Source: an uncultured Candidatus Saccharibacteria bacterium
Lineage (GTDB): Bacteria > Patescibacteriota > Saccharimonadia > Saccharimonadales > JAGQNJ01
Assembly: GCA_964590205.1 (NCBI GenBank)
Contig: CAZPVO010000005.1
Span: 1-51,958 of the forward strand
Direction of reading: 5' to 3'
DNA: 51,958 nt
The position numbers and the translations under genes were made by a program. Position 1 is the first letter of the stretch. Every line of letters begins with the position of its first letter. This document shows positions 3,271 to 51,958 of this stretch, in pieces. The notes under the pieces are model-generated. The model was not told the origin of the DNA and ran no database searches. It saw only the letters and a list, made by a program, of their open reading frames with translations.

Positions 3271-4493
3271 TGCAAGGCAATATCAAAATGGCCTGGCATG
3301 CTATTCGTACAGCCAGGTGGCGAAGTTTGCTAACGGTGTTCGGTATTATCATTGGCATTACATCAGTTGTTACAACAGTAAGTTTGGGGCAAGGCGTCAA
3401 AACCCAAGTTCGCAAGCAAGTTGCTTTTCTGGGTAACGATGTCGTCACAATTCGACCTGGCGAAGCAATTCAACACGACAGTAGCGGCCTCGTGAGCGGT
3501 ATTAACATGACTTCTAATTTGCAGTCGAATATCTTGACCGATAATGATCTTACCACCGTTCAAAACTCACCGGGCGTCAGCAAAGTTGTGCCGCTTAGCA
3601 TTATTAGCGGAACACCTTCTAAAGAAGGCGCAGCTTACAATCAAGCTATCGTTATTTCTACTAACGAAGGTTTGCCCGACGTGCTCAAGCACAAAGTCCA
3701 ATACGGAGAATTTTTTAGACAAGAAGACGAAGGCAAAAATGTAGCAGTTATTGGTAGTAAAGTTGCACACGAAGTCTTTAAAGAAAACGTGCCGATTGGC
3801 AAAAGTTTTACTTTTCGCGACCAAGACTTTATTGTTCGTGGTGTTCTGGATGATTTTGATAGCAACCCTATAGTCCCTGGGCTGGACTTAAATAATGTTG
3901 TTTTTATTCCGTATGTGACAGGTAAAACGCTCACTAATAACAGCTCGCAAATGTTCCAGATTTTCGTGCAGCCAAAAAATTCAAATAACCTTTCGTCAAC
4001 TATTAGCGCTGTAAAAGATAACTTACAAAAAGCACACGGTGGTCAGGAAGATTTTATGATTTTAACCCAGGCCGAATCACTCAATGCGAATAATAATATC
4101 CTTAATTTACTGACAAGTTTAGTAGCCGCTGTGGCAGCCATTTCCCTATTCGTTGGCGGTATCGGCATTATGAATATCATGCTTGTATCTGTAACTGAGC
4201 GAACGCACGAGATTGGTATTCGAAAAGCTATAGGCGCGACAAATCGCCAAATCTTAAACGAGTTTATGACTGAAGCGATGGTGCTCAGCTTGGTCGGTGG
4301 TGTTATCGGCAGCTTTGTTGCTATTTTGCTGAATTTGTTAATTAAGGTTTTCACCAATCTTCAGCCGGTTATAACTTGGCAAGTGCTGTTGATTGCTAAT
4401 GTTGTTGCACTATTTGTCGGCGTGATCTTTGGGGTTGCACCTGCTATGAAAGCGGCTCGCAAAGACCCAATAGAGGCTTTAAGGAACGAGTGA
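3267..4493 (+). CDS. ABC transporter permease, MacB/FtsX family
   Basis: Motifs RSLLTVFGIIIGI, GGIGIMNIMLVSVTERTHEIGIRKAIGA and C-terminal PAMKAARKDPIEALR. ATGA overlap with the ATPase gene. Confidence 0.93.
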   Translation: MMQGNIKMAWHAIRTARWRSLLTVFGIIIGITSVVTTVSLGQGVKTQVRKQVAFLGNDVVTIRPGEAIQHDSSGLVSGINMTSNLQSNILTDNDLTTVQNSPGVSKVVPLSIISGTPSKEGAAYNQAIVISTNEGLPDVLKHKVQYGEFFRQEDEGKNVAVIGSKVAHEVFKENVPIGKSFTFRDQDFIVRGVLDDFDSNPIVPGLDLNNVVFIPYVTGKTLTNNSSQMFQIFVQPKNSNNLSSTISAVKDNLQKAHGGQEDFMILTQAESLNANNNILNLLTSLVAAVAAISLFVGGIGIMNIMLVSVTERTHEIGIRKAIGATNRQILNEFMTEAMVLSLVGGVIGSFVAILLNLLIKVFTNLQPVITWQVLLIANVVALFVGVIFGVAPAMKAARKDPIEALRNE

Positions 4494-8432: not shown

Positions 8433-9440
8433 TTACATCGGTAATCGTACGCTAAAAGTCGATCCTTCATCGGGTTTGCTGGAAACTTTTATTTCGCCGC
8501 CATGCAAATCCACAATGTCTTTGGCAATTGAAAGCCCCAAACCGTAGCCGTTATACTCATGCTTGGAGCGGGCACTATCGGCTCGGTAAAACCGTTCAAA
8601 AATTCGTGCAATATCATGTGCTTGTATACCGATACCTTTGTCAATTATGTTGATGACTGCGGTTTTGTTTTCTTTGATAAGCTCAACAATTACATCTGAC
8701 TTCTCTGGACTATATTTAACTGCATTGTCGAGGATAATGGTAAGTGCTTCGCTGAGGCCTTCGCTATCGACATTCGCTTTTATATCACTGGCAATTTTTG
8801 TATCAAGTGATATTTTTTTGGCTTTGGTAGTAGCTTCAACTTGCTGAACAGATTTATTGATGACGGATTTTAACGATGAAATCTTGGCGTCGATGGTATG
8901 ATTTTCGAGCCGAGCGAGTCGTAATAAGCCTTCGGACAATGATGTGAGTCGTGCGAGTTCTTCTAAATTACTTTGTAGCTGTTCTTTGGCTTCCTTCAAG
9001 GTAAGCTTTGGATTCATGAGGGACACCTCAATTTCTGATTGCATGGCGGCAATTGGTGTGCGCAGTTCATGGCTGGCATCGGCAGTAAAGCGTTCCAACG
9101 CTTCATGTGATTCCTCGATTGGCTTGAGGGTGCGGCGAGCCAAGTAATGGCTGAGCAATCCCCCGCCAACCAAGATAATGACGTTCGTCAGGATGAGTCG
9201 TCCCAACACATGACTCTTTGCTTCCTGCAGCGCAATCAGACGGTTGTTTGTAAATTCATCCCTAGAGTCAAACGGCAAAATACTATCGGGCAATCGATCG
9301 ATAACAACGCCTTGCCTTCGAAAATCACGGCTGAGCTCAGATACCAAAATGTTATAAAGATTGAGACTAAAGAAAATACTGATGGCCATGATAATGCCTA
9401 AATATAATGCAGTCAGTCTGGTCGTTGTCTTTTCAAACAC
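8433..9440 (-). CDS. Sensor histidine kinase
   Basis: H-box FTADASHELRTP, N-box ILDNAVKYS, G-boxes DKGIGI and GYGLGLSIA; two TM segments. Confidence 0.95.
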   Translation of the reverse strand: MFEKTTTRLTALYLGIIMAISIFFSLNLYNILVSELSRDFRRQGVVIDRLPDSILPFDSRDEFTNNRLIALQEAKSHVLGRLILTNVIILVGGGLLSHYLARRTLKPIEESHEALERFTADASHELRTPIAAMQSEIEVSLMNPKLTLKEAKEQLQSNLEELARLTSLSEGLLRLARLENHTIDAKISSLKSVINKSVQQVEATTKAKKISLDTKIASDIKANVDSEGLSEALTIILDNAVKYSPEKSDVIVELIKENKTAVINIIDKGIGIQAHDIARIFERFYRADSARSKHEYNGYGLGLSIAKDIVDLHGGEIKVSSKPDEGSTFSVRLPM

Positions 9441-10117
9441 TAGGCTTTTTCTCCAAAATAATAACCAAAGCCGCGACGCGTGTGAATGAGTGGCTTATCG
9501 AACGGCTTATCGACTTTATTTCGCAGGTAACCAATGTACACCTCGACTGTGTTGGGCAAAATGTCTGCATCATAATTCCAGACATGTTGAATCAATGAAT
9601 CTTTGGTGAGAACTTTTTCGGGATTAAGCATTAAATATTCCAGCAGAGCGAATTCTTTATGTGTCAGCTCAATTGATTTTTGATCACGTGTTACAACCAT
9701 GGCCTGTGGATCGAGACTTAAATCTTTATACGTTAAAACAGTTGTTCCTTTTGCATTCGAGCGCCTGAGCAGCGCGCGCACCCGAGCAATCAACTCCAAA
9801 AATGCGAATGGCTTTACTAAGTAATCGTCAGCACCGCTGTTTAACCCATGGGCGCGGTCGAGAACTTTGTCTTTTGCTGTAAGTAATAACATGGCGGTGT
9901 GAATATTCTGCTCACGGATAGACTTTAAAATCCCTATGCCATCAACACTACCCGGTAACATGCGATCGAGAATGATCAGATCGTAGGGTTCGCTGACGGC
10001 CATAGCCAGCCCATCATCACCGTTGTAGGCGACGTCTACGGCATAGGATTGCTGTTCTAGGCCGCGCTTAATTGCATTTGCAATTTTATGTTCATCTTCG
10101 ACTACCAGAATTCTCAT
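9440..10117 (-). CDS. OmpR-family response regulator
   Basis: MRILVVEDE start at ATG 10117, phospho-acceptor LIILDRMLP, GADDYLVKPF and a winged-helix C-terminus. Confidence 0.95.
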   Translation of the reverse strand: MRILVVEDEHKIANAIKRGLEQQSYAVDVAYNGDDGLAMAVSEPYDLIILDRMLPGSVDGIGILKSIREQNIHTAMLLLTAKDKVLDRAHGLNSGADDYLVKPFAFLELIARVRALLRRSNAKGTTVLTYKDLSLDPQAMVVTRDQKSIELTHKEFALLEYLMLNPEKVLTKDSLIQHVWNYDADILPNTVEVYIGYLRNKVDKPFDKPLIHTRRGFGYYFGEKA

Positions 10118-10154
10118 ATCTCTATTGTAGCGGGAAATATCTGAGAACAAACTG

Positions 10155-10186
10155 AAAAAAAGAGAGCCATCAAATTGATGACTCTC
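10155..10186 (-). terminator. Intrinsic terminator
   Basis: GAGAGTCATCA-ATT-TGATGGCTCTC followed by T7 on the minus strand. Confidence 0.75.
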
Positions 10187-10212
10187 CTCTTGTACTAGCC
10201 GGTCGTTCGTGC

Positions 10213-10674
10213 TTATAGTGGCTCTGGCCCTCCTCCTCGGTGGCCACCTGGTCTTACGACATATTGCTCGGGGATGTTATTGTCTTTAGCCCATTGAATC
10301 AGCTCATCGTGCTTGGTCTTCATCGCTGCATGACGTTCCTCGGGGGTTTTATCCTTTAAGGAATCCATGAAAGTCTTCATTTCTTGCAGCTTTGCGAGAA
10401 TCTGATCTTCTTGTGCCTGCGTTAACTTACCATCTTTGACGGCCTGGTCTAAACGCGCCTTCATATTTTGCTCACGCTTGGCTTCATGCTCGGCCCTGTT
10501 ATCGTCAAAAACTTTCTGGACATCATTCTTATTGAGATTAAATTTCTGGGCTATTTGATCTACTAAAGTTGATTGTCCTGAGCTTTGACTTTGAGCTGAA
10601 GCCAGCCCTACCCCTAATACAGCGCTGAGACCGATGGCAGTTGCAGCGGCTGCGACAACTAATTTTTTCTTGAT
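10213..10674 (-). CDS. Exported alpha-helical hypothetical protein
   Basis: Signal peptide (KKKLVVAAAATAIG..ASA) followed by charged helices. A strong AGGAGG SD lies 5 nt before an in-frame ATC, so the start is uncertain. Confidence 0.75.
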   Translation of the reverse strand: MKKKLVVAAAATAIGLSAVLGVGLASAQSQSSGQSTLVDQIAQKFNLNKNDVQKVFDDNRAEHEAKREQNMKARLDQAVKDGKLTQAQEDQILAKLQEMKTFMDSLKDKTPEERHAAMKTKHDELIQWAKDNNIPEQYVVRPGGHRGGGPEPL

Positions 10675-10762
10675 ACAATCCTCCTTTCGTTTGTGTGCTA
10701 CCCGTTTTTTGGTAGCTGAGCACATACTAGCCAATAAAGTTGAGAGCGAGCTGAAATAGATG

Positions 10763-11365
10763 TTAATGCAGTAGATTGTGAATAAACGTCACAATAATTG
10801 TACTGAGTCCAATCGTTACGGCAATACCAGTCACACCGATGACAATACCGACAATAACAATAATAATATCTTCTAAAATTAAGCCGAGTGACAACACAAC
10901 GACACCGAGTGCCGGTAATGTATCAAGGCCAGAAAATGGCGGCGCCAAAAAGGCTGCCAGCGAAAATACCAATACAATAAGTCCCATAACTGAGCGAAAC
11001 CATGTCTTTCCAATAATGCCACCTGCTCTACGACGCGAATACTTTTCGAACCAACGAATGCGGCGCATTAAAAATGGCAGAATTTTCTTGCGCGTTCGAT
11101 GACCAATCTCAGTTTTTTGCCAACGCTTGGGCAACCAAATGGTTGAACGACCGATGATTAGTTCGAGTGCGAGGAGCATCGCGATAACCTCAAAAACATG
11201 CGTGATACCACCGGTTGGCAACGGCAAGGCTGGAATGGCCAGTAGAAGCAAAAAAGCCAAAGCAAAACTTTTTTCAGCAAAAATCTCATCAAGACCGGCA
11301 ATTGTTTTGCTGCCCTTACTTTTGAGCCAAGTTTCTAGCTGTACGCTAAACGGAACTTTGTTCAT
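10763..11365 (-). CDS. exoD: ExoD family (exopolysaccharide synthesis) membrane protein
   Basis: Motifs LLLLAIPALPLP, WLPKR and LDTLPALGVVVLSLGL. Start set at ATG 11365. Confidence 0.8.
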   Translation of the reverse strand: MNKVPFSVQLETWLKSKGSKTIAGLDEIFAEKSFALAFLLLLAIPALPLPTGGITHVFEVIAMLLALELIIGRSTIWLPKRWQKTEIGHRTRKKILPFLMRRIRWFEKYSRRRAGGIIGKTWFRSVMGLIVLVFSLAAFLAPPFSGLDTLPALGVVVLSLGLILEDIIIVIVGIVIGVTGIAVTIGLSTIIVTFIHNLLH

Positions 11366-11392
11366 AACGAGTACTATAATACAATTTAGAGA

Positions 11393-11737
11393 ATGGAAAA
11401 TGACAAACAAGCTGAATTTGACCGCCTAAAGACCACGGCGTCGTATAGTAAAGTTGCTGCTGTCGCTATATTCTTTATAGTTTTTGGAGCATGGTTTTAT
11501 CACATTGTTGAGCATTTAAGTTGGCTCAACAGCTTTTATTTCACTGTCATTACACTGGCCACGGTTGGTTATGGTGACATTGTCCCTAAAACTGATGCTG
11601 GCAAGTTGTTCACGATATTTTACGTCTTTGTTGGGATTATTATCTTCTTAACTTTAGCCCGAATAGTTTTAGCCGGTGTTGCAGTAAAAATGCAACACCG
11701 GACTGAAGAGCGTCGTGAAAAAAAGCGGAAGCTTTAA
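11393..11737 (+). CDS. Two-TM potassium channel (KcsA-like) subunit
   Basis: Selectivity filter TVGYGD, pore helix SFYFTVITL and two TM segments. Confidence 0.92.
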
Positions 11738-11738
11738 C

Positions 11739-12134
11739 TTAAGCTTCGGCTTCGTTGCCGTGTACAACAAGCGCAAACAGAATCACAACATCGATAATTA
11801 AAGCTGCGATTGACCAGACTGGATATGCTGGTAAAAAGGCCAAGTTGGCGACTAGACCAAGTGCAGCAACAATTATCCCGACTACACGACCAAACATGCC
11901 GCCGTGAAACAGTGAAAATCCGGCAGTTAAAAAGATAACCGCGAGGATAAGGTGTACCCAGCCCCAAGCCGTGAAGTTAAATACTGACAGTGTCTGTGGT
12001 GTGACCACATAAAAACTTGGCTTCATCAGCGCGACGATGCCCATAAAAGCTTGGAAAAAAGCTCTTACTACTAATAAAATGCCGGCAAAATATACCCAGC
12101 CAACCCACCCGGTTGATTGATTTTGAGTTGCCAT
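11739..12134 (-). CDS. Four-TM membrane protein (DUF7144-like)
   Basis: GWVGWVYFAG, TAWGWVHL and AYPVWS patterns; AAGGAGG SD. Confidence 0.65.
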   Translation of the reverse strand: MATQNQSTGWVGWVYFAGILLVVRAFFQAFMGIVALMKPSFYVVTPQTLSVFNFTAWGWVHLILAVIFLTAGFSLFHGGMFGRVVGIIVAALGLVANLAFLPAYPVWSIAALIIDVVILFALVVHGNEAEA

Positions 12135-12230
12135 AGAGATAACCCTCCTTAGTTATACTATAATCATCGCTTATGCTAGCAAATATGTCAAATAACCGTG
12201 TTAATATTACAGCAACACCATATTTATAAA

Positions 12231-12923
12231 TTAAGTGAGTCGGGGCAGTTGTTCGAGTATAGGCTTGGATAGGTCGCCGCCTGTATGAATAATCTGATTG
12301 CCTGCAACTTGAGTCGCTCGTGTATTGTATGCCAGTACACGCTTGCCCTCAGTTGTTGCTAGCAGCCCATCGACAATTGCTACGTGCGATGCATAATAAA
12401 ATCCTGCGGCAGTCTGGAAGTCACTGATGACTATGCCTTCGTCGCCGTTTTTTTGAATTACAAGATCTTTTTCTTCGGATATTGGCGTAGCCATGTGTAC
12501 TGGTATGCCCATGCCGAGTCCATGCCGGTTTTCAAAAAAGTAATGTGGCTCCATCAGTGGCTGAACACCGCTAGCTTCATTAATTGGCCTCAGATCATGA
12601 TAAGCCATCCAGCGTTCCATAGGACCATTGAGATAGACATTTCGGTCGGCTCCATAATATTGCCCTTTTGCTAACATAACGCCGAACGCCACGCAATCAA
12701 CTCTGTTACCCTGTCTGAGGCGCTGCAGGCTCTTAACTATGGTTTTGGATATCTGTCTGGCGACTTCAGGTTTAACTGGCTGGGTCTGCCCATCAATAAC
12801 GACTTCTGACAACTGACCGGTAACAGATAGCGGATCACTAAGCACCGCGTACTGTACTTCCTGTGATTCAGGATTCTGTGGCGATGGTTCTGACTGGGTG
12901 TAAAACTCAAGTGCTTTCGACAT
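12231..12923 (-). CDS. Hypothetical protein
   Basis: 230-aa ORF with no recognised motif. Confidence 0.6.
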   Translation of the reverse strand: MSKALEFYTQSEPSPQNPESQEVQYAVLSDPLSVTGQLSEVVIDGQTQPVKPEVARQISKTIVKSLQRLRQGNRVDCVAFGVMLAKGQYYGADRNVYLNGPMERWMAYHDLRPINEASGVQPLMEPHYFFENRHGLGMGIPVHMATPISEEKDLVIQKNGDEGIVISDFQTAAGFYYASHVAIVDGLLATTEGKRVLAYNTRATQVAGNQIIHTGGDLSKPILEQLPRLT

Positions 12924-12952
12924 TATGTATATTATGTTATAAAACCTTAAAA

Positions 12953-37308: not shown

Positions 37309-37391
37309 TATTTATATTTTAGCAAACTAGCACTTCATTCAAAAAACTCATACTTGGCATGTGCGACTTTGCGCCTAGAATCAACATTGTA

Positions 37392-37637
37392 TTAGCTTCT
37401 TGATGGTGATTTTCTAAGCTTAAGGCGTAAATTAGAAATATAGTCACTCACCTTAACTTGCGGGTAGGCCTTTAGGTATGAAAGATGCGCGTCAACAAAC
37501 GAAATTTTGTTGCCCGGCCACATCTCACTGTTTGCTCTATAAGCGGTTAAGGTCGTCAGTGATGAATCTTTCTGCATCTGCAGCAAAATACTTCGAGCTT
37601 CATCAAGCTCAGAGTCTTTTCTGATAACTTTCATCAT
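37392..37637 (-). CDS. Conserved-looking hypothetical protein
   Basis: Starts 2 nt after the RRM gene stop, suggesting an operon. Confidence 0.65.
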   Translation of the reverse strand: MMKVIRKDSELDEARSILLQMQKDSSLTTLTAYRANSEMWPGNKISFVDAHLSYLKAYPQVKVSDYISNLRLKLRKSPSRS

Positions 37638-37639
37638 AA

Positions 37640-37927
37640 CTACCTTCTGTAACCGCCAAAGCTACCTTGTTTACGGTCGTTTTGAGGACGGGCCTGGTTA
37701 ACAACAATAGAACGACCATCGATTTCCTTGTTATTCAACTCTTTAATAGCATTTTGGCCATCTTTTAACTCTTCCATTTCTACAAATCCAAAACCTTTGG
37801 ATTGAGAAGTGTCTCTATCTTTTATGATGACAGCACTTAAAACTTTACCGTGTTCTTCAAACAGAGTTTTTAGCTGGTCATCTGTAGTGTTGTATGACAG
37901 ACCACCAACATATAATTTAATTGGCAT
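37640..37927 (-). CDS. RRM-domain RNA-binding protein
   Basis: RNP2 LYVGGL, RNP1 KGFGFVEM and a Gly/Arg tail. Confidence 0.95.
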   Translation of the reverse strand: MPIKLYVGGLSYNTTDDQLKTLFEEHGKVLSAVIIKDRDTSQSKGFGFVEMEELKDGQNAIKELNNKEIDGRSIVVNQARPQNDRKQGSFGGYRR

Positions 37928-38059
37928 AAAAAATCCTTTCTTAACTTGATATCATAGGCATTTAGTATGACTAGCCGCTAGGATATCGAGCCCAAGAAAG
38001 GCAAAGTATTGCAAAGGTAAGCTAGAGTAACCACTCGCTTAAATATATTTTACCACAAG

Positions 38060-38100
38060 ATGCGCTGAAGTGCTAACGCTCATGCTTGGTTCTCTGGATG
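38060..38100 (-). repeat. Junction repeat copy 7 (distal, degenerate)
   Basis: Minus strand: GAGAACCA-AGCAT-GAGCGT-TAGCACTTCAGCGCA. Confidence 0.55.
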
Positions 38101-38116
38101 GAGTGGATGCCGGTAC

Positions 38117-38713
38117 TCAAGTGCCAGCAGTCACAGCAACAATAACAACCACTAGTACACAAAGAAGAATGATACCTGCAATTGTGCCAACAATAATTAA
38201 ACCGAAATGATAGTTTACTATTTTAGGGGCAGTTGTATTAACTCGAAAGCCATTTTGCTGCAGGGTTGTCAGCCACTGAGTCATAACTGCCAGGCTGACA
38301 ACTGGATCTGCCTTAGGGATCTTCATATCTTCTACTGTGTAACCAGTAATACCCGCGGCTGTTGATGCTAGATCAAAACTTTGAGCTATATCGACGGCAG
38401 TGCCAACAGCTTGTTCGGCAGAAATATCAGCCTCCACGGGCTTAGCATCACTATCAATTAATGTAAATGTAGCCTGTTCATTTTGGCTCGTGAACTGAAG
38501 TGTTCCCGGCGTGTGAGAATCATATTCAACATTCAAAACTTCGTCGTGTTTCTTGCGCCACTTTTCAGTGCCATTGGGTGTGCGATATGCAAGTGAGCCA
38601 TCTTTAAAAAGTACCAGGTTGCCATGTGCACTTTGTTTTGGTGATAACATATTCGCTTGAGCAGTGAGAAGTATAGACCCGGTATCTGCTACATTTGAAG
38701 GACGGCTATCCAT
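38117..38713 (-). CDS. Cassette gene: hypothetical protein with C-terminal TM
   Basis: Start set at ATG 38713 (38719 possible); TATAAT lies 6 nt upstream. Confidence 0.65.
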   Translation of the reverse strand: MDSRPSNVADTGSILLTAQANMLSPKQSAHGNLVLFKDGSLAYRTPNGTEKWRKKHDEVLNVEYDSHTPGTLQFTSQNEQATFTLIDSDAKPVEADISAEQAVGTAVDIAQSFDLASTAAGITGYTVEDMKIPKADPVVSLAVMTQWLTTLQQNGFRVNTTAPKIVNYHFGLIIVGTIAGIILLCVLVVVIVAVTAGT

Positions 38714-38731
38714 ACGCATATTATAACAAGC

Positions 38732-38768
38732 AAAAAAAGCACCTCTTCCAACGTGCTTACCTTCTTGC
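38732..38768 (-). repeat. Junction repeat copy 6
   Basis: AAGCAC-GTTGGAAGAG-GTGCTT-TTTTT; the stop codon of the upstream hydrolase lies inside it. Confidence 0.75.
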
Positions 38769-39434
38769 CATGCGGACAAGTTTGCGTACTCTTACTAAGT
38801 TTCTAATAACTGTTTGACTGTGGTTAAGTTTATGATGAGAAATGAGTTTTACTTGTGCACCAGCAGCCTTAAGTGTCTCGATACATTCCAATGCGGCCTT
38901 AAAACCAGCGGTTTTATCATTTTTGCTTGCAACTGCAATATAGTTTTTCCCACTCAGATTCTTGAGTTTCGGATGTTGCAGCTCGTGCCAAGCTTCTGCT
39001 AATGACTCTTTGGTAAAGCCATTGACTTCAAACTTGTGTCTTTCAGACTCAAAACTCCAGATTGCTCTAGTTATGTCACCACCAGCAATCACAACACCCC
39101 AAGAAAGCTCAGGAATATCATCAAGCGAGCCATATAAAACGAAACCACCTAAGCTTGCACCGACAAAACCAAATTCTTTGTATCCCTTTTTTTGTAACGT
39201 GCGGATAGTATCTTGAATATACTTCTCAGATTGCTCAATGGCCTTAAAGAGTAGTTTCGGATCACCTGTGTCAAAGATTGCCAATGTGTAACCGAGAGCA
39301 ATTACTGAGTAATTGTCACGCAGCAATGCACGAATAGGTAGACGCAACTTGCTGACTGAGATGCCATATGGCCCAAGCAAAAAGATGGCTCTTGTAGCTT
39401 TCGGCTTTAAGTATTCTCTAGTTTCAACTAGCAT
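38757..39434 (-). CDS. Cassette gene: alpha/beta hydrolase fold protein
   Basis: GASLG elbow, ASKNDK acid and C-terminal His. Start set at ATG 39434, 7 nt after TACACT. Confidence 0.72.
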   Translation of the reverse strand: MLVETREYLKPKATRAIFLLGPYGISVSKLRLPIRALLRDNYSVIALGYTLAIFDTGDPKLLFKAIEQSEKYIQDTIRTLQKKGYKEFGFVGASLGGFVLYGSLDDIPELSWGVVIAGGDITRAIWSFESERHKFEVNGFTKESLAEAWHELQHPKLKNLSGKNYIAVASKNDKTAGFKAALECIETLKAAGAQVKLISHHKLNHSQTVIRNLVRVRKLVRMARR

Positions 39435-39449
39435 ATGGCCTAGTGTAAC

Positions 39450-39509
39450 AAAAAACACTTCGTGATGAAGTGTTTATGCTTGCTTCTACTAAGGTGGTAG
39501 ATGTTAAAA
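39450..39509 (-). repeat. Junction repeat copy 5
   Basis: TTTTAACATCTACCACCT..GAAGCA-AGCAT-AAACACTTC-ATCAC-GAAGTGTTT-TTT. Confidence 0.75.
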
Positions 39510-40376
39510 CTATGATTCAATGGGTGGTTGTGTAGGCTGGTTTGGTTGTGGTGAACTAATGTCTTTGTTTTTGCCTTTTATGCGCATCAAAGTATTAAAG
39601 TACAGGCCAGTGAATCCGATAGTTGTGTGGTGCTCGCCAAAAACCACTAGCCATAAATTACTTGGTCGCCGGCTAAAGAGCTTTATGCGCAGCGGATAAG
39701 CTGTCGCAGGGCCAGTGCTGGTAGACTGTGTCAACAGCCAGATTCTTGAAGGCTCGTGTCCATTTGTTGGAGTACCAACTATCTGATAATAGGAATCTTT
39801 GCGCCCTTTCGGACTGTTCGGATGTTTTGAGTTTAAATATCCTTTGTACTTAAGTTGGTACGGCATGTCTTTAGGACTTAGACCTGTCACGATAAAGAAA
39901 ATTGTTAGTAATAGCCGTAAACAAAAGAATATTCCATAGACAAATATTATGGTTAGGACAATTGTCAGTATCGAAAATACCACATTACTATTTGTATATG
40001 CTTCCGCTGGCAAACGGGCTGTATCACCGAAAGGTGCAATAATAACCTGTACATTATCACCAACATTAGGTTGATGAGGCTGATCGACACACATTTCCAG
40101 TGTTACCTGTCTATCATTAGCTGTTCCTTTATATCTGATCCGATTGCAGGTGTTAGGTGAATTATTGGTATAACCGTGACCACCAGCTAGGAAATGACTT
40201 TCGGTGATATGCATGCTTGCCGTTTGGGCCAGACCAAAAGTACGAGCGTAGTCTGGCTCGGTCAGTGGACTGGCAGCAAACAAAATGACAAAACAGACAA
40301 ATAAGACAGCTATCGGAATTATGAAAAAAGTAACAATAAAACCCTCAGACTTAAATATTTGACTTTTGTTGAACAT
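39510..40376 (-). CDS. Cassette gene: membrane protein with an extracytoplasmic beta-domain between two TM segments
   Basis: TM-domain-TM layout; TATACT lies 7 nt before ATG. Confidence 0.65.
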   Translation of the reverse strand: MFNKSQIFKSEGFIVTFFIIPIAVLFVCFVILFAASPLTEPDYARTFGLAQTASMHITESHFLAGGHGYTNNSPNTCNRIRYKGTANDRQVTLEMCVDQPHQPNVGDNVQVIIAPFGDTARLPAEAYTNSNVVFSILTIVLTIIFVYGIFFCLRLLLTIFFIVTGLSPKDMPYQLKYKGYLNSKHPNSPKGRKDSYYQIVGTPTNGHEPSRIWLLTQSTSTGPATAYPLRIKLFSRRPSNLWLVVFGEHHTTIGFTGLYFNTLMRIKGKNKDISSPQPNQPTQPPIES

Positions 40377-40402
40377 TAATCCTAGTATAATTTACGCACA
40401 AT

Positions 40403-40461
40403 AAAAAAGCACTTCTTTCACAGTGCTTGTGCTTGGGTCTGAGTGACGGTGGAAGTTAGAA
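40403..40461 (-). repeat. Junction repeat copy 4
   Basis: TTCTAACTTCCACCGT-CACTCAGACCCA-AGCAC-AAGCACT-GTGAAAGA-AGTGCTT-TTTT. Confidence 0.85.
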
Positions 40462-40989
40462 CTACTTTAGATCTTTTAGCACAGAACCTAATGTCTGATT
40501 ATTAATATAGGTCGTTTCTAAAAATTGAGCGTAAAACTTTTTCCCATACTCGGCTGCTCCTTCAAGACAAACTTGCAGGTATCGTCCTTGGGCGATGGAA
40601 CCAAAATCGTAATTACCGTTGTTCTTATTTGCTGAAAAGACTTTGCATTCTCCTAGAGGCTTGCCACTTTCGAAGTTATATGCGGTTGTGGATACTAAAG
40701 CGTACTCTTGTTCACGTCGTCTGAGTGCTTTGAAATACGTCTCATCAACACTAAAGACAATGCCATTAACATGAGATTTACCCTCAGCCTGCTTAACATC
40801 AACTGCACAAAACGGTATGCCACGAATATCACGATTCGTTTCTGTAAAGCCTTCGGGATCCCATAAACTAAAGTCTCGGACAAAACCTTCAATGTAGGCG
40901 GGTCGTATATCGCTCACATCGGGCACAGTTGCCCGCAATGATTCCTTAGACATTAGTGAGCCGTAACCGAAAACAAGTAGCTTGCTCAT
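40462..40989 (-). CDS. Cassette gene: gamma-glutamylcyclotransferase (GGCT/ChaC-like) family
   Basis: Motifs LVFGYGSLM, NGIVF and LRRREQEY. Start set at ATG 40989. Confidence 0.8.
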   Translation of the reverse strand: MSKLLVFGYGSLMSKESLRATVPDVSDIRPAYIEGFVRDFSLWDPEGFTETNRDIRGIPFCAVDVKQAEGKSHVNGIVFSVDETYFKALRRREQEYALVSTTAYNFESGKPLGECKVFSANKNNGNYDFGSIAQGRYLQVCLEGAAEYGKKFYAQFLETTYINNQTLGSVLKDLK

Positions 40990-41009
40990 TGACATATGAT
41001 AGCAAAAAT

Positions 41010-41066
41010 AAAAGCACCTCATTCAAAGTGCTTATGCATGGCTCTTTGTAACGGTGGAAGTTAGAA
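41010..41066 (-). repeat. Junction repeat copy 3
   Basis: TTCTAACTTCCACCGT-TACAAAGAGCCA-TGCAT-AAGCAC-TTTGAATGAG-GTGCTT-TT; two mismatches to copy 1 over ~35 nt. Confidence 0.9.
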
Positions 41067-41453
41067 TCACTCTAGTTGGGTTTGGATATTGGCGAGGCGA
41101 TCAAACAGGGATTGTTTTTCACTCTCATCCAACCAATGGGTAGACGTTACAGGACGCGACGGGATACTCCCTTCTGTTTTGGCAAACTCCCAAACACGTT
41201 CGTCCTCGTGAAGTTCGTATATATGCCAGTCATTACCTTCGCCTATGTGGATTCTTCCGATAATGTCTCCAGAACCCCCAATAGTTCCTCCTTCACTTGC
41301 CAGTGACATGTGAACTACGGTTCCATCAGGCAAACGTCGGTTAAAGACGCCTCGTTCGTTGGATGTACGGCTAAATCGACTCTCAGGATTTGTGAGTGAG
41401 ATTTCACCCAATAATTCCCTTGTCTGCTCAAAAGGCGTATCTGTTCGGCTCAT
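41067..41453 (-). CDS. Cassette gene: hypothetical protein
   Basis: 128-aa ORF bounded by junction repeats. Confidence 0.65.
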   Translation of the reverse strand: MSRTDTPFEQTRELLGEISLTNPESRFSRTSNERGVFNRRLPDGTVVHMSLASEGGTIGGSGDIIGRIHIGEGNDWHIYELHEDERVWEFAKTEGSIPSRPVTSTHWLDESEKQSLFDRLANIQTQLE

Positions 41454-41457
41454 AAAA

Positions 41458-41520
41458 ACAAAAATACCACTTTTTTGGCATTTTGCATATTGCTTATGCT
41501 TGGCTCTCTGTGGCCATCGA
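41458..41520 (-). repeat. Junction repeat copy 2
   Basis: 16 nt (GAGCCAAGCATAAGCA, 41506-41491) are identical to copy 1, followed by an alternative hairpin ATGCCA-AAAAAG-TGGTAT and a T-tract. Confidence 0.8.
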
Positions 41521-41522
41521 AT

Positions 41523-41870
41523 TTAGCTAGCCTCGTCAGAAAAAGGTACATACTCTGTAATTATTGCAGGTGTTTCTTGATAGGCTTGAGTAAGGCCCGT
41601 GTTGTCCAGGGTGGCAAAAGGCTGCTCCCCTACGAAAAAACTGTATGTACTTGGTGTGCTTTCATTACGAACCACACACTTTTGAGCAACTGATAAGTCG
41701 CCATCTGCTAGTCGGGCTTCATCTTCAGTAGAGAAGTCCCATAGAAGTATAAGCCTACCAACAGCCAGGCCAGGGACGTCTGGGTGAGTAACTGTAAATA
41801 TACCTTCTGACGCGGTTGGGCTTATCTCTACCTCTTGCCCGTGCTTACCTTCATAGTGTCTCCACAACAT
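41523..41870 (-). CDS. Cassette gene: hypothetical protein
   Basis: 115-aa ORF with its own promoter TTGCAC-16-TATAAT, 8 nt before ATG. Confidence 0.65.
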   Translation of the reverse strand: MLWRHYEGKHGQEVEISPTASEGIFTVTHPDVPGLAVGRLILLWDFSTEDEARLADGDLSVAQKCVVRNESTPSTYSFFVGEQPFATLDNTGLTQAYQETPAIITEYVPFSDEAS

Positions 41871-41917
41871 GGTGGCTAATTATAAAACTTTTCAGCGATT
41901 GTGCAAGAACCTAAAAC

Positions 41918-41966
41918 AAAAAGCACCTCTTTCAAAGTGCTTATGCTTGGCTCCGGGGAGAGGATA
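41918..41966 (-). repeat. Junction repeat copy 1 = tRNA-Asn-like 3' end (att site) plus terminator
   Basis: ATCCTCT-CCCCGGA-G-CCA reads as T-stem, acceptor strand, discriminator G and CCA (implied 5' TCCGGGG, Asn-type). It is followed by AGCAT-AAGCAC-TTTGAAAGAG-GTGCTT-TT. Confidence 0.85.
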
Positions 41967-42187
41967 ATGCCGTCCCTCTGGGACGAACGCACCTCCGACT
42001 ATTGCCTGCTTCGCAGTCAAGTCGGAGAATCGAAGCCTTGCACGAAAAATGAGCCTGCCCAGAACCTCTTTGGGTTCTGATCAGACTCATGGCTCACACT
42101 AGCTGACGCATTGCGAACTGCCAGTGCGGAATATGACGAGCATCAAGTGCAAAATATTCAGTCTATACTGCAGTACAATGCGTTAGC

Positions 42188-42619: not shown

Positions 42620-43762
42620 ATGATTAGGGACTTTAAGCCAGACCACACATCCGACCATGCTAGTGGTCCTTTGTATTTTGTGCGTTCTGAAGATAAGTAC
42701 AGGAGCTTGTGGCAGTACATTAAACGTTACCAAAATCCAACATTTAACGACAAAATACTCAAGAAACGTCACCCCGCTATGGCCAGCGGTATAAGAAAAG
42801 TCAAAGCACAACACGTTGCCGATGCTCTAAAGCAAGCTGAGGCTTATTTCAATACAGCAAGGTCCAGTGAGCTTGCGATTAAGCCACTCATTTTATACTA
42901 CGGGGCACTAAATATGGTTAAGGCTCTCATGATTTTCGCCGATAATGACCTTACGCTTGAAAATACGGTTCAAAGGGATAAAGGGTTGAACACTCATGGG
43001 CTTACAAATGGTGCTTCTAGCCCAGCCGATGAAGCGATCCGGAATGATAGCACTAACCTTCTTGAGGAATTTGGACTCGTAAATGCAGTAGACAAAACCG
43101 TTTTCTCCCTGTTGCATAGCTGCTGGTCTGACACTCCATTGCCGCAAGGTACTCGACTTGAACTCGGCGATTTAGCGTCAATGCATCCAAATAGCTGGAG
43201 GAGTTACAAGGCACACACCGATAAGCCACCGAAGTATTTCAAAATCGAAGGTGCCAGCTTTCGTACAACGGCAAGGGGTCCAGAGCATATGGTTGTGTTC
43301 GGCGGATTATTCAATTCGATGCTTTACCAACCAACAATGCCAACTGGTCAAGATAACATCTTTGCATTCTTTGAGGGTCAGCTGTCTCAACTTGCGACCT
43401 ATTACAGTCGAGAAACTCAGCCGCAATCCAGCTTTTATACGAATACTATGCCTAATAATATCGATGAATATTTGCCTGGCTATCGTGAGCCTAGTGGCAC
43501 AAGGTTCGTTATGAAAAATATTAACGCAGGGCAAGCATTACATCTTATAGAGGTTGAATTCGCAATGTTATTTATTCTCGGAAATCTTACCAGATACGTA
43601 CCTCAGAAGTGGCTAGACAACGTGAACTATGGGAACAAAGGTGAAATGTTTGTGGTTGAGGGCTTTATTAACTCAGTTGCTTTCTCTTTTCCCAAGCTTA
43701 TTTTTGAAGAGCTCGAAGAGAAGGACTACACCTTCACAGGTGATGTTGCTTACTGGAACTGA
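42620..43762 (+). CDS. YaaC-like family protein
   Basis: Motifs QAEAYFNTA, IKPLILYYGALN, THGL and LFILGNLTRY.P..W. Confidence 0.7.
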   Translation: MIRDFKPDHTSDHASGPLYFVRSEDKYRSLWQYIKRYQNPTFNDKILKKRHPAMASGIRKVKAQHVADALKQAEAYFNTARSSELAIKPLILYYGALNMVKALMIFADNDLTLENTVQRDKGLNTHGLTNGASSPADEAIRNDSTNLLEEFGLVNAVDKTVFSLLHSCWSDTPLPQGTRLELGDLASMHPNSWRSYKAHTDKPPKYFKIEGASFRTTARGPEHMVVFGGLFNSMLYQPTMPTGQDNIFAFFEGQLSQLATYYSRETQPQSSFYTNTMPNNIDEYLPGYREPSGTRFVMKNINAGQALHLIEVEFAMLFILGNLTRYVPQKWLDNVNYGNKGEMFVVEGFINSVAFSFPKLIFEELEEKDYTFTGDVAYWN

Positions 43763-50440: not shown

Positions 50441-51958
50441 ATGAAAACACTTGAAAATAAAGACTACGAAGGAGTGAAAGCATTCTTAATCGCACGTGTA
50501 TCTGACACACGACAGACAGAGGCATTGCCAGCACAAAACCTACGACTAGAGGAGTATGCCAACAGGCTAAAACTTAATTATGAATACTTCTCTTTTGATG
50601 AAACAGCATACAAGGAAGACCGTCAGAGATTCAGAGAAATCGTCAATCAAATCTACGAACAGTCTAACTTTTGTATAGTCGTATTTGATAAGATTGACCG
50701 TTTTGCCAGGGACGCTTCTACCGAAGTAGTGATGATATTAAAGCGACTAGTACGTGAAGGTAAGATTGAGCTGCATTTCCCGTCAGACAATCTTTTGTTT
50801 CATAAAAACTCGCCAGCCGCTGATAAAACCCGTCTCGGCATGGGTATGGTTTTCGGCGAATACTACTCTGCTGCTATTAGCGATAACGTAAAAAGAAAAA
50901 TAGAACAGAAGCTACATGAGGGTGAATTCCCAGGTAAAGCACCTATAGGTTATAAGAATGTGGCAACTACCGATGACATGGGCAAGATATTGTCTAAAAA
51001 CATTGTGCCTGATCCAGCCCGTAGGCAGTACATAGAAAGGGCATTCCAGCTAAGACTTGAGGGTAAGTCATTTCGTTTAATCGCAAAGGTTCTTAAAGAT
51101 GAGGGTCTTAGGGCAAACACTAAGCAGCAAGGTGTAGTATCTCAGAGTCAAATGGAAACTATGCTTAAGAACTCCTTCTATTACGGCGTTATGAAATATG
51201 ACGGCGGTACATACCCTCATAAATACGAACCAATAATTACTAGAAAAATATTCGATCAGGTACAAGCTATCAATGAAACACGAAATGCAGAACGTGATAA
51301 AACACTCACTAAGCAGACTTATACCTTTCAGGGCATATTAAAATGTGCCACCTGTGGCTGCTCCTACTCTTCATACGTAAAGAAAGGTCGTGTCTATATG
51401 CGTTGCACTAAGTCTAAGGAAGGCGTTGCTTGCGACCAGCCACCTACATCAGAAGAGCATCTAATCCCACAAGTACACGAGCTGCTTGAGCAACTAGCGA
51501 TTAGCGAACAGCGGGTATTGCAAGTACTAGATATTCTGAAAAAGGGACATGATGATATTCAACTCTACTATCAGACTGCCATTTCTGAAACCCGTGCCAA
51601 AATCAATAGACTGAACAAAAAAATAGATATGCTCTATGATGACCGTCTTGAGGGTCGTATTACTACGAACGACTATGACAAATATGTAACTAAGTATAAG
51701 AATGATAAAGAAGAGCTAGAGAATAAGCTGGTTGAATACACTAATAACGACAAATCCTTTGTTGTAACAGCTGAACATCTGTTAAAACTGGCTCAAAATG
51801 CTAAGAGTGTCTTTGAAAGTTCGCAACCAGCTCAAAAGAACAAGATTCTACGAACCTTACTTGCGAACTGCAAAATCAATCAAAAAAGGCTGCAACTCAA
51901 TCTGTTACAGCCCTTCTTGGCACTTAGTGCTGACTCTAAAAGTCAAAATTGGCTCCGG
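50441..51958 (+). CDS. Large serine recombinase (3'-partial; absent from ORF track)
   Basis: Catalytic ARVSDTRQ and DKIDRFAR, recombinase domain GKAPIGY, Zn ribbon KCATCG..RC..C and a coiled coil. The ORF is open to the window end and reads into the att repeat (QNWLR). Confidence 0.93.
   Translation, partial: MKTLENKDYEGVKAFLIARVSDTRQTEALPAQNLRLEEYANRLKLNYEYFSFDETAYKEDRQRFREIVNQIYEQSNFCIVVFDKIDRFARDASTEVVMILKRLVREGKIELHFPSDNLLFHKNSPAADKTRLGMGMVFGEYYSAAISDNVKRKIEQKLHEGEFPGKAPIGYKNVATTDDMGKILSKNIVPDPARRQYIERAFQLRLEGKSFRLIAKVLKDEGLRANTKQQGVVSQSQMETMLKNSFYYGVMKYDGGTYPHKYEPIITRKIFDQVQAINETRNAERDKTLTKQTYTFQGILKCATCGCSYSSYVKKGRVYMRCTKSKEGVACDQPPTSEEHLIPQVHELLEQLAISEQRVLQVLDILKKGHDDIQLYYQTAISETRAKINRLNKKIDMLYDDRLEGRITTNDYDKYVTKYKNDKEELENKLVEYTNNDKSFVVTAEHLLKLAQNAKSVFESSQPAQKNKILRTLLANCKINQKRLQLNLLQPFLALSADSKSQNWLR

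What the first reader, a model, noticed from the sequence alone, without database searches (positions are those of the whole stretch)
39492..41066. Identical 16-nt arm glued to the stop codons of unrelated cassette genes
Seen: TTCTAACTTCCACCGT follows the stop codon immediately in two non-homologous genes (41066-41051 and 40461-40446). A variant, TTTTAACATCTACCACCT, follows a third (39509-39492). Shared sequence on the cargo side of the att core cannot be explained by duplication of the chromosomal target alone. Inference: it is a recombinase-binding arm carried by each cassette. The post-stop YYYAAC echoes the integron R'' box, but no partner R' palindrome is visible.
Basis: partly seen in the sequence, partly recalled or inferred. 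Interest (0 to 1): 0.65.

Follow-up and report, generated by a model that had tools for sequence, protein, structure and literature searches.

The report
Cassette-borne attachment-site arm mimicking tRNA-Asn
The repeated 16 bases are the outer part of a conserved 25-base "arm" that many unrelated one-gene cassettes stacked behind the tRNA-Asn gene of Saccharibacteria carry at their 3' end. The arm copies the tRNA's T-loop box 5 bases further from the shared crossover site, the spacing rule of serine-integrase attachment sites, so it is most likely the recombinase-binding half of each cassette's insertion site.

Summary
TTCTAACTTCCACCGT occurs exactly twice in the 0.9-Mb genome, each time directly after the stop codon of an unrelated gene. 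A looser copy follows a third gene.

The arm is not a local duplication. It belongs to a family with consensus TAG-TTCTAAC-TTCCAYCAYTAC-NNN-GAGCCAAG. This family occurs in 19 of 151 sampled genomes of the order (reversed control 0), always inside cassette arrays downstream of tRNA-Asn and behind different genes.

GAGCCA is the last six bases of tRNA-Asn and the point where cassette homology starts and stops. Anchored there, the tRNA T-loop box TTCGAAT lies at -17..-11 and the arm box TTCTAAC at -22..-16. Arm conservation ends at -25. This matches the attB/attP half-site geometry of large serine recombinases.

The arm begins with TAG. That, plus tight trimming, explains why it looks glued to stop codons. 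There is no attC-like fold and no integron integrase.

The enzyme is not identified. Both serine-recombinase elements of this genome end in a different arm type.

The scan has reported these tRNA-Asn arrays, and the 5-bp offset, before on other DNA. I found no paper describing them.

The parts
41045..41069 (-). Type-A arm of cassette 2: TGA + TTCTAAC + TTCCACCGTTACAAA. It holds the 16-mer at 41051-41066, and the stop codon is its first three bases.
41039..41044 (-). GAGCCA core after cassette 2. It equals the last 6 nt of tRNA-Asn and is the inferred crossover region.
41005..41038 (-). Right-hand module after cassette 2: TGCATAAGCAC, terminator-like hairpin (41033-41012) and T run.
41067..41453 (-). 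Cassette 2 gene, 128 aa, no Pfam family. Its only relative found (63% identity) lies in another Saccharibacteria-like contig without this arm.
40440..40464 (-). Type-A arm of cassette 3: TAG + TTCTAAC + TTCCACCGTCACTCA. It holds the 16-mer at 40446-40461.
40434..40439 (-). Core after cassette 3, GACCCA (one change from GAGCCA).
40462..40989 (-). Cassette 3 gene, 175 aa, ChaC/GGACT-like gamma-glutamylcyclotransferase. Homologues elsewhere lack the arm.
39487..39512 (-). Degenerate type-A arm of cassette 4: TAG + TTTTAAC + 16 nt (one base longer), followed by core GAAGCA at 39481-39486.
39510..40376 (-). Cassette 4 gene, 288 aa, membrane protein, no Pfam family.
41507..41522 (-). Arm of cassette 1 (ATTCGATGGCCACAGA). 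This is a different arm, with a TTCGAT box near the tRNA-type distance. Core GAGCCA follows at 41501-41506.
41948..41953 (-). GAGCCA of the first junction. It is the displaced tRNA-Asn 3' end at the inner border of the serine-recombinase element.
41954..42037 (-). 'Dead tRNA' arm of the serine-recombinase element. It keeps the tRNA-Asn 3' part, but hairpins are inserted where the T-loop would be. A paralogue lies behind tRNA-Arg on contig 4.
50441..51958 (+). Large serine recombinase gene of the element at the head of the array. Its reading frame runs antisense into tRNA-Asn on the next contig.
51950..51958 (-). Last 9 nt (CCGGAGCCA) of the functional tRNA-Asn gene. The rest lies on contig 8, which overlaps the window end by 55 nt.
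37329..41953 (-). Whole cassette array: about 8 units. The cores become more degenerate with distance from the tRNA.

Best explanation
The 16-mer is the conserved outer part of a 25-bp cassette-borne attachment-site half, here called the type-A arm. Its consensus is TAG TTCTAAC TTCCAYCAYTAC NNN, immediately followed by GAGCCAAG.

Shown here:
- The window ends at tRNA-Asn.
- Behind the tRNA lie a roughly 10-kb serine-recombinase element and then a row of one-gene units.
- Each unit ends in an arm plus GAGCCA, which is the last 6 nt of the tRNA.
- GAGCCA(AG) is where homology between genomes begins and ends, so it holds the crossover.
- The arm lies on the gene's side of that point and moves with the gene.
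- The arm imitates the tRNA half of the target. The tRNA T-loop box TTCGAAT is at -17..-11 from GAGCCA, the arm box TTCTAAC is at -22..-16, and arm conservation stops at -25.

Inferred:
- This 5-bp outward shift and the 20 versus 25 bp half-site lengths match the attB versus attP rule of large serine recombinases, in which the zinc-ribbon domain motif sits 5 bp further out in attP.
- The arm is therefore the P-type half-site through which a serine recombinase, supplied in trans by an element such as the one at the head of the array, inserts (and perhaps excises) recombinase-less cassettes at the tRNA-Asn 3' end.
- Newest cassettes would lie next to the tRNA.
- The stop codon touches the arm because the arm itself starts with TAG, and because non-functional spacer has been trimmed back to the functional edge of the site.
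For: The 16-mer is unique to this array in the genome.

The arm family is specific and widespread:
- 27 hits in 19 of 151 genomes of the order and 16 of 120 genera, against 0 hits for the reversed control.
- 32 instances in the fetched loci, always with a 3-nt variable gap before GAGCCA. TAG precedes in 15 and TGA in 1, and the upstream genes differ.
- Wherever the contig allows, the arm lies downstream of tRNA-Asn in the same orientation.

Evidence on the crossover and on what moves:
- Sequences diverge right after the tRNA's CCA and fall into several right-hand module types.
- A DUF1697 cassette follows the tRNA in one genome and a type-A arm in another. Homology starts exactly at GAGCCAAG and ends at the next GAGCCA.

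Evidence on geometry:
- The anchored alignment shows the +5 shift for types A and A' and for a type-B copy.
- The published rule places the zinc-ribbon (ZD) motif at 16-24 in attP and 11-19 in attB (PMC3783163).
- In relatives an inverted partner box GTTAGAAC follows the core. In G160 it mirrors the T-loop box at +11..+17.
- The resident element's tRNA-side half has TTTAGAG at +16..+22, a 5/7 mirror of the arm box.

Evidence against other site types:
- There is no conserved fold, so recognition is by sequence.
- The only site-specific recombinases in the genome are two large serine recombinases and one Xer-type enzyme.

Homologues of cassette genes 2 and 3 elsewhere lack the arm.
Against: No recombinase has been tied to this arm.
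- Both serine-recombinase elements of this genome end in a different, 'dead-tRNA' arm with no box at -22..-16.
- No serine recombinase lies in or beside the type-A arrays fetched from other genomes.
- No type-A arm was found in viral contigs.

The geometry fits only partly.
- The usual right-hand module (AAGCATAAGCAC...) does not mirror the arm box.
- Where the partner box exists (G162, G284, L095) it lies 2 bp closer than the attB position.
- By the standard serine-integrase model, repeated insertion into a site that already holds a P'-type right half should be blocked.

Several other arm types (A', B, C, dead-tRNA) share the same core. Recognition of the core alone cannot be excluded.

All of this is comparative.
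Confidence: 0.58

Rival explanations
1. A tyrosine recombinase acts instead: the universally present Xer-type enzyme, as with IMEX elements or Acinetobacter pdif modules, or an unrecognised integrase. The arm would be an accessory or core binding site.
For: One Xer-type recombinase is present in this genome and in all five arm-bearing genomes tested, and it is far better conserved than the serine recombinases. A conserved arm across families would fit a conserved resident enzyme. AAGCATAA resembles the inner part of a XerC arm (my comparison with the E. coli dif sequence from memory).
Against: The junction has no dif-like 11-6-11 dyad. The best dif candidate of the genome (window 12915-12942) resembles neither arm nor core. 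Boxes spaced 23 bp apart do not fit a Xer site. Several unrelated arm types would need one enzyme.
Confidence: 0.12
2. The arms are fossil scars only. Each unit is the decayed remnant of a full integrative element whose recombinase was deleted. The arm is no longer used, and the identity of the two copies reflects common descent or local gene conversion.
For: The cores become more degenerate with distance from the tRNA. The two exact copies share changes (CCACCGT instead of CCATCAC) not seen in other genomes. This genome holds no matching recombinase.
Against: The arm is 16/16 identical while the rest of the junction is about 78% identical. The same arm stays within 0-3 changes across at least 13 families behind different genes. 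The units are compact, with ORFs ending 0-5 nt before the arm, rather than ragged remnants.
Confidence: 0.13
3. The conserved junctions act as homology anchors. Cassettes are swapped by RecA-dependent recombination after DNA uptake, and junction sequences are homogenised by conversion without any dedicated recombinase.
For: The junction modules are about 45 nt or longer and highly similar between genomes. The 5' module of the DUF1697 cassette is about 90% identical while the gene is about 60%. No recombinase lies in most arrays.
Against: This does not explain the following:
- why the arm imitates the T-loop with an exact 5-bp shift;
- why arm, 3-nt gap and core keep a fixed register in all 32 copies;
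- why all left and right module types join at the same 6-8 bases;
- why arrays are anchored on one tRNA.
Confidence: 0.08
4. The array is an integron-type system. The arm is the R'' box of an attC site that folds as single-stranded DNA and is cut by an integron integrase.
For: The units are one-gene, same-strand cassettes. TTCTAAC fits RYYYAAC in 6 of 7 positions. In some relatives a complementary GTTAGAA follows the core.
Against: There is no conserved hairpin: the consensus fold is -1.9 kcal/mol with no covariation. The boxes are 23 nt apart with nothing paired between them, and this window has no partner box. The only tyrosine recombinase scores 139 bits against a cut-off of 265 for the integron-integrase model. 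The array is anchored on a tRNA, not on attI beside intI.
Confidence: 0.03
5. The arm works at the RNA level as a 3'-UTR element. It could be a tRNA-like processing or stability signal, or part of the terminator.
For: It directly follows stop codons, precedes terminator-like hairpins and resembles a T-loop.
Against: There is no conserved secondary structure or covariation. It is absent from all other genes of the genome. It is always coupled in fixed register to GAGCCA, where genomic rearrangement occurs.
Confidence: 0.05

Closest known systems
Large serine recombinase attP/attB half-sites (Listeria A118/LI integrase model, Rutherford et al. 2013, PMC3783163)
   Same: The same recognition box occurs in the host half-site (tRNA T-loop, -17..-11) and 5 bp further out in the mobile half-site (-22..-16). 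Half-site lengths are about 20 and 25 bp. The short common core holds the crossover. A serine recombinase element occupies the same tRNA end.
   Different: The target is a tRNA 3' end. The cassettes carry no recombinase. Many arms of different types stack in tandem, which the standard attP x attB model does not predict. The right halves mostly lack a mirrored box. The resident recombinases use another arm type.
CIMEs and tandem accretion of integrative elements at tRNA genes (streptococcal ICE/IME/CIME model)
   Same: These are recombinase-less DNA segments bounded by att-type sites. They lie in tandem with an integrase-bearing element at one tRNA gene and are presumably mobilised in trans.
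   Different: Here the units are single genes with a dedicated, conserved 25-bp arm. There are up to eight or more in a row. They are probably handled by serine rather than tyrosine recombinases and are spread through a whole order of CPR bacteria.
Integron cassette arrays (IntI, attI, attC; CALINs)
   Same: Both are one-directional rows of one-gene cassettes with a recombination site at each 3' end that often overlaps the stop codon. The newest cassette lies next to the anchor. The box resembles R'' (YYYTAAC).
   Different: There is no IntI, no folded attC and no attI. The anchor is the tRNA-Asn 3' end. The sites are recognised as sequence. Terminator-like hairpins follow several cassettes.
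SCC / SCCmec composite islands moved by Ccr large serine recombinases at rlmH
   Same: Both are serine-recombinase-driven tandem stacking of elements and recombinase-less remnants at the 3' end of one conserved gene, separated by short direct repeats.
   Different: SCC units are many kilobases long and insert in a protein gene. They have no tRNA-mimicking arm with a 5-bp shift and no single-gene cassettes.
Tycheposon islands of Prochlorococcus
   Same: Both are tRNA-anchored hypervariable islands in which cargo modules are separated by partial tRNA repeats.
   Different: In tycheposons the repeats are true partial tRNA copies left by complete elements. Here the separator is a dedicated arm that only imitates the tRNA and is fused to single genes.

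Membership tests
Integron (attC cassette array) | Integron integrase (IntI) encoded beside the array | tested here: not met
   The array's neighbours are a YaaC-like gene and a serine-recombinase element. The only tyrosine recombinase of the genome is Xer-type. It scores 139 bits on the integron-integrase model TIGR02249, below the 265 cut-off.
Integron (attC cassette array) | attC: imperfect palindrome (R''-L''...L'-R') that folds as a hairpin | tested here: not met
   RNAalifold on 12 junctions gives -1.9 kcal/mol with no covarying helix. This window has no R' partner. In relatives the partner box is 23 nt away with no pairing between.
Integron (attC cassette array) | Single-ORF cassettes, one orientation, site at the 3' end | tested here: met
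Large serine recombinase att sites | Large serine recombinase (resolvase + recombinase + zinc-ribbon domains) associated with the site | tested here: inconclusive
   One is present at the head of this array and reads into tRNA-Asn. All five other arm-bearing genomes tested encode at least one. None is linked to a type-A arm.
Large serine recombinase att sites | Same distal motif in attB and attP half-sites, 5 bp further from the crossover in attP; half-sites of about 20 and 25 bp | tested here: met
   TTCGAAT lies at -17..-11 in tRNA-Asn and TTCTAAC at -22..-16 in the arms. Conservation ends at -25. The rule was read in PMC3783163.
Large serine recombinase att sites | Imperfect dyad: mirrored motif in the other half-site | tested here: inconclusive
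   Mirrored GTTAGAA lies at +11..+17 in G160, at +9..+15 in G162, G284 and L095, and as a 5/7 match at +16..+22 in the resident element's P'. It is absent from the common AAGCATAAGCAC module.
Large serine recombinase att sites | Crossover at a central dinucleotide; recombination attP x attB only | not testable with these tools
   This needs in vitro or in vivo recombination. Homology breakpoints place the crossover within GAGCCA(AG).
CIME / tandem accretion | Recombinase-less segment bounded by att sites, next to an integrative element at the same target | tested here: met
CIME / tandem accretion | Mobilisation in trans by the neighbouring element's recombinase | not testable with these tools
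   The resident element's own arm is of another type.
Xer-dependent modules (IMEX, pdif modules) | dif-like 28-31 bp site with two inverted 11-bp arms | tested here: not met
   The junctions contain no such dyad. The genome's best dif-like site (window 12915-12942) is unrelated to arm or core.

The most novel reading that the evidence does not exclude
Saccharibacteria run a serine-recombinase counterpart of the integron. Recombinase-less one-gene cassettes carry only a 25-bp tRNA-mimicking P-type arm and use the 3' end of tRNA-Asn as a common docking site. Discrete arm types (A, A', B, C, dead-tRNA) would be matched to different recombinase lineages that act in trans, so arm type defines which cassettes a cell can capture or release.
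Probability: 0.3. Interest if true: 0.8.

Novelty: new variant of a known kind. Interest (0 to 1): 0.6.

Why it matters
Saccharibacteria and other CPR bacteria have tiny genomes and live on host bacteria. How they gain and shuffle accessory genes is poorly understood.

A conserved, portable 25-bp arm would define a simple gene-capture system built on a different enzyme family from integrons. The arm turns any gene into a cassette that docks at the tRNA-Asn end.

It would also give:
- a sequence tag for finding mobile accessory genes in metagenomes;
- a natural test of the attB/attP spacing rule of serine integrases;
- possibly new short attachment sites for genome engineering.

The scan has seen these arrays in dozens of genomes. 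I found no paper describing them.

Tried and rejected
Non-coding RNA next to the array:
- The 240-nt non-coding stretch beside the array is not a known RNA gene. Rfam at gathering and at E<=10 gave nothing, and ARAGORN gave no tmRNA.
- It is the 'dead-tRNA' arm of the serine-recombinase element.

Arm search without the core:
- A 19-mer arm pattern with 3 mismatches across 401 genomes gave as many hits as the reversed control, so it was useless.
- It was replaced by arm + core patterns.

Moving copies of cassette genes 2 and 3:
- Cassette 3 has one distant homologue in 120 genomes. Its database relatives (62% identity or less) sit in ordinary contexts without arms.
- The single relative of cassette 2 lies between a different repeat type.

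Viral contigs:
- There was no true arm among 0 + 76 pattern hits.

Same-genus genome G001:
- It is not syntenic here, so no strain-level gain/loss comparison was possible.

Serine recombinase inside arm-bearing arrays:
- None was found in the arrays of other genomes.

Xer/dif link:
- A dif-like hit beside the xer gene overlaps a start codon and ribosome-binding region and is probably chance.
- The better dif candidate is unrelated to the arm.

Cassette promoters:
- The promoter scan was not enriched over shuffles (8 found against 9.9 expected). The cassette promoters I see by eye are unproven.

Earlier scan notes:
- A look-up of earlier scan notes by sequence found nothing.
Full report
**1. 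Observation**

TTCTAACTTCCACCGT is present exactly at 41051-41066 and 40446-40461 on the minus strand. The window has no other copy within three mismatches, against 0.26 expected by chance.

In the whole 0.9-Mb genome only these two are exact. The hits with 2-3 mismatches are fewer than those of the reversed control.

Each copy begins at the base after a stop codon:
- TGA of ORF 41067-41453
- TAG of ORF 40462-40989

The proteins are unrelated. One has no Pfam family and the other is ChaC/GGACT-like.

The variant TTTTAACATCTACCACCT follows TAG of ORF 39510-40376.

After the 16-mer the two junctions differ at 9 of 40 positions. The arm is therefore better kept than its surroundings (0.775^16, about 0.02, my arithmetic). 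This speaks against a simple recent duplication with gene replacement.

**2. Setting**

The organism is a Candidatus Saccharibacteria genome, judging by the record titles of matching contigs.

On the minus strand each unit of the array (about 41953 down to about 37329) ends in three parts:
- an arm;
- a core, GAGCCAAGCATAAGCAC;
- a hairpin and T run, scored as terminator-like at four junctions.

The core occurs only at this locus in the genome, with a reversed-control count of 0.

GAGCCA is the 3' end of tRNA-Asn. The genome's tRNA-Asn lies at the edge of contig 8 and ends ...GGTTCGAATCCTCTCCCCGGAGCCA. Contig 8 overlaps the window's end by 55 nt, so the tRNA abuts the window.

Between the tRNA and the first core lies a roughly 10-kb element. 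Its large serine recombinase (50441-51958+, XisF-like) reads antisense into the tRNA.

The element's inner end (42037-41954) is a 'dead tRNA'. It keeps the tRNA's 3' part, but hairpins replace the T-loop. A second serine-recombinase element at tRNA-Met and a remnant behind tRNA-Arg have the same design.

**3. The arm is a family**

In relatives, tRNA-Asn is followed by similar arrays of mostly single genes.

Arm-plus-core patterns recovered the arm from Saccharibacteria genomes and metagenome contigs. The spacing was always the same. Hits in other phyla lacked the flanking conservation and are chance.

Thirty-two instances give the consensus aG/TAG-TTCTAAC-TTCCAtCAcTAC-nnn-GAGCCAAG:
- The variable gap is always 3 nt.
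- TAG precedes the arm in 15 copies and TGA in 1.
- Conservation stops at that triplet.

A census found 27 copies in 19 of 151 genomes (16 of 120 genera, at least 13 families). The reversed control gave none. Several genomes hold 2-4 copies within a few kilobases.

Wherever context exists, the arm lies downstream of tRNA-Asn on the same strand.

Upstream genes differ. Homologues of cassette genes 2 and 3 elsewhere lack the arm.

A sister type A' (TTATAACTTCCTCTATTGT) and further types B and C share the same core.

**4. Where recombination happens and what moves**

Sequence after the tRNA's CCA differs from genome to genome.

After GAGCCAAG the arms are joined to several right-hand module types:
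- AAGCATAAGCAC...
- GTTAGAACC...
- others

A DUF1697 cassette follows the tRNA in one contig and a type-A arm in another. The alignment begins exactly at GAGCCAAG. It runs through a 90%-identical terminator/promoter module, the gene and its arm. It stops at the next GAGCCA.

A cassette therefore consists of a right-hand module, a gene and an arm, and the crossover lies in GAGCCA(AG).

**5. Geometry**

Positions below are measured from GAGCCA.

| Sequence | Box | Position |
|---|---|---|
| tRNA-Asn T-loop | TTCGAAT | -17..-11 |
| Arm types A, A' and a B copy | TTCTAAC (or equivalent) | -22..-16 |
| Outer edge of arm conservation | TAG | -25 |

For serine integrases the 9-bp zinc-ribbon-domain motif lies at positions 16-24 of attP half-sites and 11-19 of attB half-sites. 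attB is about 10 bp shorter overall (PMC3783163).

The arm thus looks like a P-type copy of the tRNA's B-type half-site.

Partial support comes from the other side of the core:
- A mirrored GTTAGAA lies at +11..+17 behind tRNA-Asn in G160.
- It lies directly after the core in G162, G284, L095 and L113.
- The resident element's tRNA-side half has a 5/7 mirror at +16..+22.

I derived this before reading earlier scan notes. Those notes report the same 5-bp offset and serine-recombinase reading on other genomes.

**6. Why the stop codon touches the arm**

TAG is the commonest state of positions -25..-23. In several copies it is not the stop of the upstream ORF, which instead ends 2-30 nt earlier.

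In 11 of the 20 copies for which an upstream ORF could be called, the ORF uses that triplet as its stop. This includes both exact copies here (TGA in one).

My inference is that the arm's outer edge is a functional boundary. In these reduced genomes the spacer has been trimmed back to that boundary, often recruiting the arm's own TAG.

**7. Rivals**

Integron:
- The only tyrosine recombinase is Xer-type, below the integron-integrase cut-off.
- The junctions have no conserved fold.

Xer/dif modules:
- The junction has no dif-like dyad.
- The genome's dif-like site (12915-12942) is unrelated.

RNA element:
- There is no structure.
- The arm is absent from other genes.
- The arm is locked in register to the rearrangement point.

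Fossil scars or homology anchors remain possible in part. The decisive weakness of the main reading is that no recombinase is linked to type-A arms:
- Both local elements use dead-tRNA arms.
- No serine recombinase sits in the other arrays.
- Viral contigs hold no arm.
- The canonical serine-integrase model does not predict repeated insertion.

**8. Novelty**

Literature searches found nothing on tRNA-Asn cassette arrays or their arms in Saccharibacteria or Patescibacteria.

The scan itself has noted such arrays in at least 45 genomes and the 5-bp offset once before. This window therefore adds to that picture:
- a clean pair of arms;
- a census of one arm type;
- the TAG explanation;
- the partner box in relatives.

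Noticed in passing
window 12915-12942 (+): TTTCGACATTATGTATATTATGTTATAA is a dif-like site, 20 of 28 positions matching E. coli dif, and the central six bases read TGTATA. It is mostly intergenic and is probably the chromosome dimer resolution site for the single Xer-type recombinase.
   Followed up: partly
window 41954-42037 (-); G000:C4:108159-108233; G000:C2 about 38440-38528: The serine-recombinase elements end in 'dead tRNA' arms. The tRNA's 3' part is kept, but the T-loop is replaced by hairpins. An upstream 8-nt inverted repeat changes with the tRNA copied (CTCCGACT/AGTCGGAG for Asn, CTACGACT/AGTCGTAG for Arg). GGCATTATCC recurs behind tRNA-Ser and on contig 12.
   Followed up: partly
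window 51904-51958 and contig 8:1-121: The window end overlaps contig 8 by 55 nt. The serine recombinase ORF continues antisense through the tRNA-Asn 3' half and stops inside the tRNA, so its C-terminus would change on excision.
   Followed up: partly
L095 (reverse) 3949-4012 and L129 (reverse) 11314-11384: The 5' module of a DUF1697 cassette (AAGGTTAGAACC, hairpin, promoter-like stretch) is about 90% identical between two genomes, while the gene it precedes is only about 60% identical.
   Followed up: no
L124 10-60 and 1320-1370: The only relative of cassette gene 2 lies in a higher-GC contig. There the units are separated by a different repeat (TTTAATGACGAGGGCGAGGTG...), and an alpha/beta hydrolase like the window's cassette 5 is its neighbour.
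   Followed up: no
L039 (G002) about 9175; L044 (G015) about 9839; G000:C14 about 1560: A CCA + A(A/C)(G/C)CATAAGCAC-hairpin trailer also follows tRNAs other than Asn. On contig 14 a tRNA-Met is followed by the inverse GCTTATGC. Similar docking sites may therefore exist at other tRNAs.
   Followed up: no
L038 (G018) 9127-12590: Five consecutive cassettes end in a different, internally palindromic arm: CTGACC.TAGTACTTGGTACGAAGTACGTCAGCTAGAGG + GAGCCA. A TACGAAG box sits at the same -22..-16 position.
   Followed up: partly
window 42620-43762 (+): A YaaC-like protein (Pfam PF14175, E 1e-26) is encoded at the cargo end of the serine-recombinase element.
   Followed up: no
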